The notes beneath the pieces were generated by a model. It ran no database searches and had not been told where the DNA came from. It saw only the letters and a program-made list of their open reading frames with translations. A DNA stretch of 64,000 nt from Eledone cirrhosa (taxonomy: Eukaryota): positions 350,424,001 to 350,488,000 of the forward strand of contig OZ024741.1 in NCBI GenBank assembly GCA_964016885.1, read 5' to 3'. The number at the start of each line of letters is the position of its first letter. The stretch's first letter is position 1. This document shows positions 44,763 through 61,484 of this stretch, in pieces. The translations under genes and the position numbers were made by a program.

Positions 44763-45373
44763 TGGTGGCTGCCAACTCGTTTTCGAGTACGGCCACTACT
44801 TTATATCCATGTAGGAGAACCCCTACTGATACGCTGAACGAGTGTAACTTTTTAGTCTAACCAGCGACTTCAAAACTCTGGTACAAACACTACACTTGTG
44901 ACAATTATTGACACATAGTGCTGGGCCCATGGTACCATGTGACGACAAATGCAGAGAGATCTCCAGATATAAAGCAATGCCTGTGCCGTGAAGCTTTTAT
45001 AGTGAGCAAAGGCACTGCACAAAGCCAGTCCCACTCTCTTAACCAAGATGATATTTACCAAAAAGAAGAACAAGTCAACATCATTGGATATCATCAGAGT
45101 TGCAGGTGTTATATCAGAGTTTTCCTTCTCCTAGAATTCTACCTTGACTAAGGCTAAGGGGTCATCTCTCCCGGTGATTTTGGATGGCCATTGACTCTTA
45201 AGAGCTCCTTTGACCTTTGACAGGTTTTGTTTTTAGTCCTGCAGGATGTCCAAAGTCACCCTCCTCACCAAGAAACCTTGGTGGGGTTGCCAGTTTAGTC
45301 GCCAACGACCCGACCATGAGACAGGTTGTACTGGGATACATGTTACCAGTAGCACCAACTGGTGACCTGACAT
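44763..45373 (-). mobile_element. ~610-bp non-autonomous bipartite RTE derivative, copy 1
   Basis: RTE 5'UTR-like TTCTAGGAGAAGGAAAACTCTGA joined to a C2H2-finger-coding remnant (family consensus [23 protein letters not shown]) and an RTE-like 3' end GTACTCGAAAACGAGTTGGCAGCCACCA. Confidence 0.8.
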
Positions 45374-48354
45374 AATATATATATATACATACATACATAC
45401 ATACATATACATATATATATATATACATACATATATATATACATACATATATATATACATACATACATATATACATACATACATATATACATACATACAT
45501 ACATACATATATATATATATATATACATATACATATACATATATATACATATATATATATACATATATATATATATATACATATATATATATATACATAC
45601 ATACATACATACATACATATATATATATATATATATACATACATATATATATATATATACATACATACATACATATATATATACATACATATATATATAT
45701 ATATACATACATATATATATACATACATACATATATATATACATACATATACATATATATATATATATACATACATATATATATATATACATACATACAT
45801 ATATATATACATACATATATATATATATATACATACATATATATATATACATACATATATATATATACATACATATATATATATATACATACATATATAT
45901 ATATATACATATATATATATACATACATATATACATACATATATACATATATATATATACATACATATATACATATATATATATATACATATATATATAT
46001 ACATATATATATATATACATATATATATACATATATATATACATATATATATATATACATATATATATACATATATATATACATATATATATACATATAT
46101 ATATACATATATATATACATATATATATACATATATATATACATATATATATACATATATATATACATATATATATACATATATATATACATATATATAT
46201 ACATATATATATACATATATATATACATATATATATACATATATATATACATATATATATACATATATATATATATATATATATATATATATATATATAT
46301 ACATACATATATATATACATACATACATATATATATACATACATACATATATATATACATATATATATATATATATACATACATATATATATACATATAT
46401 ATATATACATACATACATATATATATACATATATATATATATACATATATATATATATATATATACATATATATATATATATATATACATATATATATAT
46501 ATACATATATATATATATATATACATACATATATATATACATACATACATATATATATACATATATATATATATACATACATATATATATACATACATAC
46601 ATATATATATACATATATATATATATACATACATATATATATACATATATATATATATACATATATATATATATACATACATATATATATACATACATAT
46701 ATATATACATACATACATATATATATACATACATATATACATACATATATATATATACATATATATATATACATACATATATACATACATATATATATAC
46801 ATACATATATATATACATATATATATACATACATATATATATACATATATATACATACATATATATATACATATATATATATACATATATATATATATAT
46901 ATATACATATATATATATATATATATATATACATACATACATATATATATATACATATATATATATACATACATATATATATACATACATATATACATAC
47001 ATATATATATACATACATATATACATACATACATACATATATACATACATATATATACATATATATACATACATATATATACATACATATATATATACAT
47101 ACATACATATATATATACATATATATATATATATATATATATATACATACATATATATATATATATATATATACATACATATATATATACATACATACAT
47201 ATATATATACATATATATATACATATATATACATATATATATATATACATATATATATATATATATACATATATATATATACATACATATATATATACAT
47301 ATATATATACATACATATATATATACATATATATATACATACATATATATATATACATACATATATATATACATACATATATATATACATATATATATAC
47401 ATACATATATATATACATATATATATACATATATATATATATATATATATACATACATATATATATACATACATATATATATATACATACATATATACAT
47501 ATATATATACATATATATATACATATATATATATATATACATACATATATATATATATATATATATATACATACATACATATATACATATATATATACAT
47601 ATATATATACATACATATATATACACATATATATATATACACATATATATATATATACATATATATATATATATATATACATACATATATATATATATAT
47701 ACATACATATATATATATATATACATACATATATATATATATATACATACATATATATACACATATATATATATATACATATATATATATATATACATAT
47801 ATATATACATACATATATATATACATACATATATACATACATATATATATACATACATATATATATATACATATATATACATACATATATATACATACAT
47901 ATATATATATACATATATATACATACATATATATACATACATATATATACATACATATATATATACATACATATATATACATACATATATATACATACAT
48001 ATATATATATACATACATATATATATATACATATATATACATACATATATATATATACATATATATATATACATATATATATATACATATATATATATAC
48101 ATATATATATATATACATATATATATATATACACATATATATATATATATATACATATATATATATATACATATATATATATATACATACATATATATAT
48201 ATATATATACATATATATATATATACATACATATATATATATATATACATATATATACATACATATATATATATATACATACATATATATATACATATAT
48301 ATATACATATATATATATAATATAAGATCAAAAGATGGTTAAAGGAGTTCAATA

Positions 48355-48425
48355 TATTTTATTATGCGGATTTCAAAAACAAACATCATCAAACAATAAT
48401 ATTTGTGTTTTCATCAGATAAAACA
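48355..48425 (-). ncRNA. Type I hammerhead ribozyme (predicted)
   Basis: UGUUUUAU-CUGAUGA-[16-bp stem II, GUUU loop]-GAAA-U-CCGC-AUA^-AUAAAAUA; stem I is 8 bp with one GU pair. Confidence 0.75.
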
Positions 48426-50059
48426 GGAGAACATGATATGAAGGCTAAAAAAACACTTGTTGATAGTGCAGTTTTAAATCAACATATCCGATATCTGCAT
48501 TGCTTTATTGTACTACAATAAAACTCACCTCCTACATATATATATATATATATACATACATATATATATACATACATATATACATATACATATATATATA
48601 TACATATATATATACATACATATATATATACATACATATATATATACATACATATATATATACACATATATATATATACATACATACATATATATACATA
48701 CATACATATATATACATACATACATATATATACATACATATATATATATACATATATATATATACATACATACATATATATACATACATATATATATACA
48801 TACATATATATATATACATACATACATATATATACATACATACATATATATACATACATATATATATATACATACATATATATATATACATACATATATA
48901 TACATACATATATATATATACATATATATATATACATACATATATATATATACATACATATATATACATACATATATATATATACATACATATATATATA
49001 CATACATATATATATATACATACATATATATATATACATACATATATATACATACATATATATATATACATATATATATATACATACATATATATACATA
49101 CATATATATATATACATATATACATATATATATATACATATATATATACATATATATATATACATATATATATATACATACATATATATACATACATACA
49201 TATATATACATACATATATATATATACATACATATATATATATACATACATACATATATATATATACATACATACATATATATATATATATATATATATA
49301 TATATATATATATATATACATATATATATATATACATACATATATATATATATATACATACATATATATATATATATATATATATACATATATATATATA
49401 TACATCTATATATATTCATACATATATATATATACATACATATATATATATACATATATATATACATATATATATACATCTATACATACATATATATATA
49501 ATACATATATATTATATACATATATATATATACATACATATATATATACATACATATATATACATACATATATATACATACATATATATACATACATATA
49601 TATACATACATATATATACATACATATACATATATATATAATACATATATATACATATATATATATACATATATATACATACATATATATACATACATAT
49701 ATATACATATATATATATACATATATATATATACATATATATATATACATATATATATATACATATATATATACATATATATATATACATACATATATAT
49801 ATACATACATATATATATACATACATATATATATACATACATATATATATATACATATATATATATACATATATATATACATATATACATATATATACAT
49901 ACATATATATATATACATATATATATATATATACATATACATATATACATATACATATATAGATATATACATATACATATATACATATACACATATATAC
50001 ATACATATATACATATACATATACATACATATATATACATATATATATACATACATATA

Positions 50060-59411: not shown

Positions 59412-59644
59412 ATACATACATATATACATACATACATATATACATACATACATATATACATACATACATATATATATACATACATACATATATATATACA
59501 TACATACATATATATATACATACATACATATATACATACATACATATATACATACATACATATATATATACATACATATATACATACATACATATATATA
59601 TACATACATATATACATACATACATATATATATACATACATATA

Positions 59645-60255
59645 TGGTGGCTGCCAACTCGTTTTCGAGTACGGCCACTACTTTATATCCATGTAGGAGA
59701 ACCCCTACCGATGCGCTGAACGAATGTGACTTTTTAGTCCAGCCAGCGACTTGAAAACTCTGGTACAAAGACTACACTTGTGACCATTATTGACACATAG
59801 TGCAGGGCCCATGGTACCATGTGATGACAAGTGCAGAGAGATCTCCAGATATAAAGCAATGCCTGTGCTGTGAAGCTTTTATAGTGAGCAAAGGCACTGC
59901 ACAAAGCCAGTCCCACTCTCTTAACCAAGATGATATTTACCAAAAAGAAGAACAAGTCAACATCATTGGATACCATCAGGGTTGCAGGTGTTATATCAGA
60001 GTTTTCCTTCTCCTAGAATTCTGCCTTGACAAAGGCTAAGGGGTCATCTCTCCCAGTGATTTTGGATGGCTATTGACTCTTAAGAGCACCCTTGCCCTTT
60101 GACAGGTTTTGTTTTTAGTCCTGCAGGATGTCCAAAGTCACCCTCCTCACCAAGAAACCTTGGTGGGGTTGCCAGTTTAGTCGCCAACGACCCGACCATG
60201 AGACAGGTTTTACTGGGATACATGTTACCAGTAGCACCAACTGGTGACCTGACAT
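59645..60255 (-). mobile_element. Bipartite RTE derivative, copy 5
   Basis: Sequence similarity to copy 1. Confidence 0.85.
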
Positions 60256-61077
60256 AACATATATACATACATATATACATACATACATACATACATACAT
60301 ACATACATACATACATACATACATACATATATACATACATATATATATATACATACATACATATATACATACATATATATACATACATATATATACATAC
60401 ATATATATACATACATATATATACATACATATATATACATACATATATATATACATACATATATATATACATACATATATAGATACATACATATATAGAT
60501 ACATACATATATAGATACATACATATATAGATACATACATATATAGATACATACATATATAGATACATACATAGATACATACATATATAGATACATACAT
60601 ATATAGATACATACATATATAGATACATACATATATAGATACATACATATATAGATACATACATATATAGATACATACATATATAGATACATACATATAT
60701 AGATACATACATATATAGATACATACATACATACATAGATACATACATATATATATACATACATATATACATATATATATACATACATATATATATACAT
60801 ACATATATATATACATAGATATATATATACATACATATATATATACATACATATATATATACATACATATATACATATATATATACATAGATATATATAT
60901 ACATACATATATATATACATACATATATATATACATACATACATATATATATACATACATATATATATACATACATATATATATACATAGATATATATAT
61001 ACATACATATATATATACATACATATATATATACATACATATATATATACATACATACATATATATATACATACATA

Positions 61078-61484
61078 TGGTGGCTGCCAACTCGTTTTCG
61101 AGTACGGCCACTACTTTATATCCATATAGGAGAACCCCTACCGATGCGCCGAACGGGTGTGACTTTTTAGTCCAGCCAGCGACTTGAAAACTCTGGAACA
61201 AACACTACACTTGTGACAATTATTGACACATAGTGCTGGGCCCATGGTACCATGTGACGACAAGTGCAGAGAGATCTCCAGATATAAAGCAATGCCTGTG
61301 CCGTGAAGCTTTTATAGTGAGCAAAGGCACTGCACAAAGCCAGTCCCACTCTCTTAACCAAGATGATATTTACCAAAAAGAAGAACAAGTCAACATCATT
61401 GGATACCATCAGAGTCGCAGGTGTTATATCAGAGTTTTCCTTCTCCTAGAATTCTGCCTTGACAAAGGCTAAGGGGTCATCTCT
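61078..61484 (-). mobile_element. Bipartite RTE derivative, copy 6 (5'-truncated by ~200 nt)
   Basis: Same 3' end; stops at GGGGTCATCTCT. Confidence 0.85.

What the first reader, a model, noticed from the sequence alone, without database searches (positions are those of the whole stretch)
44763..61484. Array of six co-oriented ~610-bp non-autonomous RTE derivatives, each embedded in (TA/TACA)n: candidate microsatellite-targeting retroelement
Seen: six minus-strand copies share an identical 3' junction (..GCAGCCACCA|TATA or |TGTA). They carry private SNPs, a private internal duplication (copy 3) and different 5' ends (three full-length; ~5, ~27 and ~200 nt short). Unrelated microsatellite spacers of ~50 bp to several kb separate them, and none occurs in the left 31 kb. 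Known: internally deleted LINE derivatives that keep only the 5' UTR and 3' end exist for RTE/BovB, and the C-x2-C-x12-H-x4-H remnant matches the BovB-type C-terminal finger. Inference: constant 3' ends with variable 5' ends point to independent target-primed insertions rather than tandem duplication. This suggests an orientation-specific family that homes into, and perhaps extends, TATG/TA tracts, building a repeat-spacer-like array. Sequence targeting is unusual for APE-encoding RTEs.
Basis: partly seen in the sequence, partly recalled or inferred. Interest (0 to 1): 0.75.

Follow-up and report, generated by a model that had tools for sequence, protein, structure and literature searches.

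The report
Strand-specific microsatellite-homing RTE retroposon
These six copies are separate insertions of a very common short jumping element, a cut-down form of a longer one in the same animal genome, that sits in TA/TATG repeats almost always facing one way, likely because its enzyme cuts and primes at one short strand-specific motif, a choosiness not found described for this likely RTE-type group in the papers searched.

Summary
Six minus-strand copies are real. They belong to a family with at least 26,192 copies in this 3.0-Gb genome. I found the parent: a ~4.06-kb endonuclease–reverse transcriptase–3×C2H2 element whose first 433 and last 179 nt were joined at a 2-nt microhomology. The six are independent insertions (one clade rejected, p-AU 1.7e-45); copy 3's 'private' duplication marks a dispersed subfamily. 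Genome-wide, 4,087 of 5,339 5' ends abut an AT/GT repeat (background 4.9%), and TATG polarity is 2,215:50. Truncated and very young copies behave alike; target duplications start at T|AT. Caveats: a short T|ATRT motif alone gives ~70% repeat context in this genome, another SINE reaches 34%, and six copies in 22 kb of tract is only mildly above expectation (2.5). The TATG preference (41% versus ~3%) goes beyond that motif. The array is a by-product, not a functional repeat-spacer locus; tract extension is not shown. All sampled parents are broken; an intact, young relative with the same 3' hairpin and target is the likely current driver. The scan noted TATG-associated RTEs and arrays before on other DNA of this genome.

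The parts
44764..45375 (-). Copy 1, full-length bipartite unit
56893..57499 (-). Copy 2, full-length; nearest sampled relative on C1 (L073)
58150..58760 (-). Copy 3, starts at unit position ~28; member of a dispersed subfamily with a ~28-nt internal duplication (58286-58362)
58761..58807 (-). 47-nt spacer; first 42 nt (element strand) equal copy 3's 3' flank: likely target duplication of copy 3 landing at copy 4's 3' junction
   Evidence: reading inferred
58808..59410 (-). Copy 4, about 5 nt short at the 5' end
58873..58944 (-). Remnant of the parent's last C2H2 finger (shown for copy 4; present in all six)
59646..60257 (-). Copy 5, full-length; young subfamily (over 99.4% to 29 distant copies)
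59823..60255 (-). Unit nt 1-433 = 5' UTR of the parent (copy 5 coordinates); predicted three-way-junction fold in the first ~52 nt
59646..59824 (-). Unit nt 432-610 = last 179 nt of the parent (end of ORF, 3' UTR, terminal stem-loop); joined to the 5' part at a 2-nt TC overlap
61079..61484 (-). Copy 6, 5'-truncated at unit position ~205; nearest sampled relative on C1 (L078)
31500..62022 (.). Host tract: TA/TACA microsatellite of one polarity (TACA on +), 22,262 bp of alternating repeat (73%; left part of window 5%), with an assembly gap at 38645-38844

Best explanation
The unit is a non-autonomous retroposon made by internal deletion of a 4.06-kb single-ORF LINE (likely RTE clade) of the same genome, and each of the six copies is a separate insertion, likely by target-primed reverse transcription, into a TA/TATG tract that was likely already there. 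Shown: parent, junction, dispersed relatives, T|AT junctions, ~10-nt target duplications, 44:1 polarity. Inferred mechanism: the APE endonuclease nicks a TpA step on the ACAT/ATAT strand so that the primer ends in AT, which pairs with AU(G/A)U read through at the RNA 3' end; on a TATG tract the motif T|AT exists on one strand only, which fixes orientation; a further preference for TATG runs (longer RNA-DNA pairing or protein recognition) is needed to explain 41% against about 3%. Each insertion leaves target beside its own ends, so co-oriented stacks build up where polarised tract is long, as here. Enzyme supply: first the parent; for the youngest subfamilies likely an intact relative (1,181-aa ORF) with the same 3' stem-loop and target.
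For: Parent: 7 copies carry both ends, unit 1-433 at 91-98% and 432-610 at 83-96%, TC overlap; APE, RT and three C2H2 fingers. Family: 26,192 exact 3' ends, 9,429 exact 5' ends, reversed controls 0. Independence: 6 label changes for 6 local rows among 82, p-AU 1.7e-45. Contrast: three 412-bp elements in the same tract are 99.5-99.8% alike with identical flanks, as tandem duplication predicts. Target: 4,087 of 5,339 forward-strand 5' ends pass the repeat test against 19,636 of 400,000 background positions; polarity 2,215 against 50. Pre-existing target: truncated copies 25 of 48 pass, TATG polarity 19:1; young copies 25 of 29; 123 of 125 3' flanks start with AT; duplication length 12.8 against 7.3 in shuffles; 7 duplications with non-repeat letters start at the junction; 5' and 3' repeat type agree (odds ratio 8, p 6e-7). 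Intact relative: 10 equal-length ORFs at least 99.3% alike, ends in the same flanks.
Against: A short motif explains much: random T|ATRT sites in background pass the generic repeat test in about 70% of cases (T|AT 39%), so 76.5% alone does not show recognition of long repeats. A control SINE reaches 4,133 of 12,139 (34%). In the least biased sample only 14 of 28 copies pass at the 5' side. The background is 20 stretches of 10 kb with wide spread (0-26% repeat). The intact relative is only about 70-79% alike in the 5' UTR domain and 87% in the last 30 nt, so trans-mobilisation is not shown, and intact parents may exist among the unscored candidates (40 of 243 scored). Some stacks elsewhere do group on the tree (L071, L078), so duplication also occurs in this family. 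Clade was not tested against named references.
Confidence: 0.8

Rival explanations
1. Only a weak, ordinary RTE-type cut preference (T|A with 2-4 nt of microhomology) acting in a genome very rich in TA repeats; no true repeat targeting. This shares most steps with the best explanation and differs in degree.
For: T|ATRT sites give 70% repeat context and the right polarity in simulation; TSDs starting with A after T are published for animal RTEs (PMC6007223 section 15; PMC13295347 passages); control SINE 34%.
Against: TATG runs at the 5' side in 2,215 of 5,339 (41%) against 2.5-3.3% for the best short-motif models; also 12 of 39 truncated copies without an upstream neighbour.
Confidence: 0.3
2. 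The repeats are carried or made by the element (RNA with repeat leader and tail, or slippage by the RT), so the element builds the tracts rather than finding them.
For: Pure (ATGT)n spacers of 14-88 nt between head-to-tail copies; a repeated 3-nt end in some copies; RTEs generate microsatellites in Lepidoptera (PMC2887409 discussion).
Against: 5'-truncated copies have the same 5' flanks; duplications with unique letters start right at the 3' junction, leaving no tail; the host tract here is 22 kb for six copies. A modest tail contribution is not excluded.
Confidence: 0.12
3. The six arose by local tandem duplication or unequal crossing-over of one insertion.
For: Same orientation; 42-nt flank shared by copies 3 and 4; duplication does occur in this tract (412-bp triplet) and in some stacks elsewhere.
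Against: One clade rejected; copies 2, 3, 5, 6 each have nearer relatives on other contigs; different 5' ends.
Confidence: 0.02
4. Insertion is random and copies survive only in repeats (selection or assembly bias).
For: The tract is gene-poor-looking, contains a gap, and collects at least five unrelated elements.
Against: Cannot give 44:1 strand polarity or the fixed AT junction; very young copies show the same pattern.
Confidence: 0.04

Closest known systems
Bipartite non-autonomous RTE derivatives (Bov-A, RTESINE1/2, WALLSI3, RTE-N2_Lch; Kojima 2018, PMC5786205, parts 1-3 of 5 read)
   Same: 5' end plus 3' end of an autonomous element joined by internal deletion; no RNA-gene head found.
   Different: Keeps one of three zinc fingers; strand-specific TA/TATG context is not discussed in the parts read.
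RTE 'Tn-TA' insertion signature (Nishiyama and Ohshima 2018, PMC6007223, part 1, section 15 and passages; PMC13295347, passages)
   Same: Duplications of about 10 nt starting with A after T; 3' repeat proposed to steer cutting or priming.
   Different: There a weak motif in ordinary DNA; here three in four copies abut a repeat with 44:1 polarity. PMC6007223 states that only the Tx1 and R1 clades hold site-specific APE LINEs. The upstream T stretch was not tested.
Microsatellite-targeting LINEs Waldo (ACAY), Mino (AC), Kibi (TC), Koshi (TTC), Dong (TAA) (review PMC3812793, passages)
   Same: Insert into pre-existing short repeats; Waldo's ACAY is close to ACAT.
   Different: Other clades (R1, Tx1, R4: clade labels partly recalled); no 'RTE' in that review's text. 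Here the target set is looser (AT and ATGT).
RTE-2_OV of Octopus vulgaris (PMC9115989, section 6 and passages)
   Same: Single ORF with endonuclease, RT and C2H2 finger; microsatellite fills the 3' UTR right after the ORF, as in the intact relative found here.
   Different: 1,109 aa against 1,181; sequences could not be compared (4 supplement files not searched); no target preference reported in what I read.
Lepidopteran RTEs that seed microsatellites (PMC2887409, abstract and discussion)
   Same: RTE 3' ends beside simple repeats.
   Different: There the repeat lies inside the target duplication on one side and insertion is said not to be sequence-specific; here repeats flank both sides and are largely target.

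Membership tests
Bipartite non-autonomous LINE derivative | 5' part matches the 5' end of an autonomous LINE | tested here: met
   unit 1-433 at 91-98% in 7 parent copies
Bipartite non-autonomous LINE derivative | 3' part matches the same LINE's 3' end; ORF deleted | tested here: met
   unit 432-610; about 3.45 kb removed at a TC overlap
Bipartite non-autonomous LINE derivative | Spreads as its own unit with TPRT marks | tested here: met
   thousands of copies, fixed 3' end, 5' truncations, target duplications, subfamilies
RTE clade | Single ORF with APE endonuclease and RT | tested here: met
   Pfam Exo_endo_phos and RVT_1 in parent pieces and in the intact relative
RTE clade | RT groups with named RTE elements in a tree | not testable with these tools
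   no named references: homologues were unnamed; PDB hits only L1 and R2
RTE clade | Short repeat at the 3' end, TSD of 7-15 nt starting with A | tested here: met
   median 10 nt, 123 of 125 start with AT; range from PMC6007223
BovB lineage | Sequence grouping with BovB | not tested
tRNA/5S/7SL-headed SINE | RNA-gene-derived head | tested here: not met
   head is the parent's 5' UTR; no such Rfam match; ARAGORN none in the window
Site-specific (microsatellite-targeting) LINE | Most copies in one repeat type, one orientation, flanked on both sides | tested here: met
   76.5% repeat context, 2,215:50 polarity, truncated copies alike; target looser than one motif
Site-specific (microsatellite-targeting) LINE | Specificity beyond a short cut motif and beyond other families | tested here: inconclusive
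   TATG 41% against about 3%, but generic context matched by T|ATRT and background small; control SINE 34%
Site-specific (microsatellite-targeting) LINE | Endonuclease cleaves the target specifically | not testable with these tools
   needs biochemistry
Tandem satellite array | Local copies form a clade with alignable spacers | tested here: not met
   p-AU 1.7e-45
5' self-cleaving ribozyme of known type | Match to an HDV-like, twister or hammerhead model | tested here: not met
   no ribozyme family at E up to 5; a conserved fold is predicted, 3 of 28 pairs with a two-sided change

The most novel reading that the evidence does not exclude
A lineage of RTE elements with three C-terminal C2H2 fingers has become truly repeat-specific: the fingers or the endonuclease read (TATG)n on one strand, making this a third APE clade with site-specific members, sharing its target with R4/Dong-like elements on the opposite strand; the intact young relative makes it directly testable.
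Probability: 0.25. Interest if true: 0.72.

Novelty: new variant of a known kind. Interest (0 to 1): 0.48.

Why it matters
How APE-type LINEs acquire target specificity is open; published site-specific cases lie in R1 and Tx1. Here a parent, a 26,000-copy parasite and an intact young relative give a natural data set and a ready enzyme to separate three causes (cut motif, RNA-DNA pairing, zinc fingers). It also explains why co-oriented 'arrays' appear in this genome without any function, and warns that TA/TATG markers here will often sit beside mobile elements.

Tried and rejected
Protein search with the 55-aa finger remnant found nothing (weak test). Rfam gave only microRNA hits driven by the repeats and no ribozyme. 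Single-strand folds of the head and the 3' end were not clearly better than shuffles (z 0.30 and -1.60). Thirteen 'orphan' 5' ends fetched to find the parent were ordinary or broken units; the parent came from a side hit in L066. Reverse-strand counts of gapped patterns count one site several times and were not used. (21,638 3' ends followed by 12 nt of repeat) has no matching denominator, so no fraction is given. The Atlas held neither protein. No RNA holder listed. Contigs of four runs labelled as other organisms cover the unit in near-identical pieces; taxa are coded, so relatedness, transfer or contamination cannot be told; loose ends pile up at one GATC and are likely library junctions. 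My first idea that the His-x3-His before the finger was all coding remnant was wrong: it straddles the deletion junction. Literature: 8 searches showed no report of a TATG-targeting RTE; Repbase, Dfam and most subscription papers were not searchable.
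Full report
Observation. A BLAST of the unit against the window finds six minus-strand copies and none left of 44764. They share the 3' end, followed on the element strand by AT(A/G)T; copies 3, 4 and 6 lack about 27, 5 and 204 nt at the 5' end. 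Pairwise identity is 96.2-98.0%. They lie in a 30-kb stretch that is 73% TA/TACA repeat of one polarity, with an assembly gap. The finger remnant is real.

A dispersed family. The window is G000:C2:350424001-350488000 of a 3.0-Gb genome; the host looks like an octopod by recalled resemblance and by earlier notes, which I did not test. The last 24 nt occur 26,192 times and the first 26 nt 9,429 times; reversed controls give 0. Copy 3's duplication occurs in 4 distant loci. In a tree of 82 copies of at least 400 nt (identical rows, L001 and the 12 loci picked for opposite polarity left out; L002-L030 were picked by likeness to copy 5) the six local rows need six label changes, and holding them together is rejected (p-AU 1.7e-45; bootstrap not fully settled). 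The same tract holds a positive control: three 412-bp elements, 99.5-99.8% alike with identical flanks, which is what duplication (or an assembly repeat) looks like.

The parent. A related three-finger peptide from L035 found full-length APE-RT-finger proteins (32 of 116 candidates); one of them led to an intact family in G000 (81 scored, 30 fetched): ORF 1,181 aa, 10 equal-length ORFs at least 99.3% alike (best hits, so biased to young), sharing unit 194-400 at 74-79%, the last finger at 71% and the last 30 nt at 87%. A side hit in L066 then gave the direct parent (40 of 243 candidates scored; 30 read with 1.5-kb flanks, 9 of these and 10 more read at about 5.5 kb). Seven copies carry both ends; four are 4,045-4,075 nt; they are 93-96% alike; unit 1-433 is the 5' UTR and 432-610 the 3' end, overlapping by TC. 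No intact parent ORF was seen (longest open frame 655 aa among the 19 long loci). Parent and relative are 55% identical over the C-terminal 447 residues. Their terminal stem-loops differ by a G-C to A-T pair (seen). Older families with the same head also sit in such repeats.

Target. On the forward strand 4,087 of 5,339 5' ends have six AT/GT units within 5 nt; 4.9% of positions pass in 20 evenly placed 10-kb stretches. TATG polarity is 2,215 to 50. Among 125 copies in hand (biased towards young copies and clusters; includes at least one parent fragment) 123 3' flanks start with AT and none with ATAC or ACAT; 60 of 77 full-length and 25 of 48 truncated copies pass at the 5' side; apparent duplications average 12.8 nt against 7.3 in 200 shuffles, and 7 with non-repeat letters begin at the junction. 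Repeat type agrees between the two flanks (33/26/9/57, p 6e-7). In the least biased set (first 30 on C1, 28 measurable) 14 pass at the 5' side, 21 at the 3' side, 28 start with AT; of 29 young copies 25 and 23 pass. The parent and the intact relative show the same flanks.

What tempers it. Simulated insertion at T|AT sites passes the generic test in 39% of cases, at T|ATRT in about 70%: in this genome a short motif looks like repeat targeting and also yields polarity, since T|AT lies on one strand of a TATG tract. What such motifs do not give is 41% TATG runs (2.5-3.3% predicted, from a small background). A SINE with a GAT tail also favours TA repeats (4,133 of 12,139). Clusters are common: 13 of 99 gaps between listed 3' ends are at most 1.5 kb (0.75 expected), 12 on the same strand. 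Scaled to tract content, 2.5 copies are expected here and six has P 0.043. So the array is a by-product. Tract growth by the element is not shown: duplications add about 10 nt each (inference: some 0.3 Mb in all), while pure (ATGT)n spacers between stacked copies leave room for a tail.

Mechanism (inferred). Nick at TpA on the ACAT/ATAT strand, primer ending in AT, pairing with a read-through repeat at the RNA end, second nick about 10 nt away. Copy 3 most likely landed at copy 4's 3' junction (42 shared nt). Whether pairing, the endonuclease or the three fingers supplies the TATG preference is untested.

Known systems. Bipartite RTE derivatives are well known (PMC5786205, parts 1-3 read). A weak T|A signature and a role of 3' repeats are published (PMC6007223, part 1, section 15, passages; PMC13295347, passages). 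Repeat-targeting LINEs are known from other clades (PMC3812793, passages); RTEs were described as not sequence-specific (PMC2887409, abstract and discussion). An octopus RTE with a C2H2 finger and a repeat-filled 3' UTR is described without target data (PMC9115989, section 6 and passages; four supplement files not searched). PMC13282606 (part 1 of 3) gives no such detail. Eight searches showed no TATG-targeting RTE; Repbase and Dfam could not be checked, so the family may be catalogued. Clade membership rests on architecture, not on a tree with named references.

Earlier notes of this scan (unchecked AI notes) report TATG-associated RTEs, a 38-copy array and Dong-like neighbours elsewhere in this genome. 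I checked one claim in part: of 23 hits to a restriction-like-endonuclease peptide within 1.5 kb of a unit, 18 lie on the opposite strand (the R4/Dong label is from those notes and recall).

Verdict: real, well supported, a new variant of known kinds; the local array itself is ordinary.

Noticed in passing
window 32869-33281, 36795-37206, 40353-40764 (+): Three 412-bp LINE 3' ends, 99.5-99.8% alike with identical flanks, around an assembly gap: recent tandem duplication or assembly repeat.
   Followed up: partly
window 50062-51889 and 62022-64000 (-); L079: Two LINEs with a PHD finger inside the RT region and GAT tails in the same tract; the second runs on beyond the window with an endonuclease ORF.
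   Followed up: partly
window 55124-55621 (+) and 57602-57924 (-): A 5'-truncated LINE of another kind and a SINE with a tRNA-like head (label recalled) share the tract; that SINE's head occurs 22,304 times, 34% beside TA repeats.
   Followed up: partly
L111-L122: Intact young APE-RT-3xC2H2 family with repeat-rich 5' UTR (over 1 kb) and 3' UTR; 4 of 9 long copies (L113, L117, L120, L121) have an inverted 5' part, like twin priming.
   Followed up: partly
L065, L070, L072-L074, L077, L168, L187, L194: Elements with a restriction-like endonuclease sit tail to tail with the unit on the opposite strand of the same TATG tract.
   Followed up: partly
unit nt 5-52; alignment A2: Head folds into a predicted three-way junction with two-sided changes in one hairpin and a self-complementary 6-mer in a loop; no Rfam match; possible unknown 5' processing element.
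   Followed up: partly
C8, C9, C10, C13, C19 starts; C5, C13 ends: One copy with the same opposite-polarity flank recurs near many contig ends: likely a subtelomeric segmental duplication.
   Followed up: no
L076, L105, L024, L070, L132, L138: Older non-autonomous families share the head (74-84%); some join it to the intact relative's 5' UTR domain and 3' end.
   Followed up: partly
runs X4-X7: Near-identical pieces of the unit in runs labelled as four other organisms; related species, horizontal transfer or contamination not told apart.
   Followed up: partly
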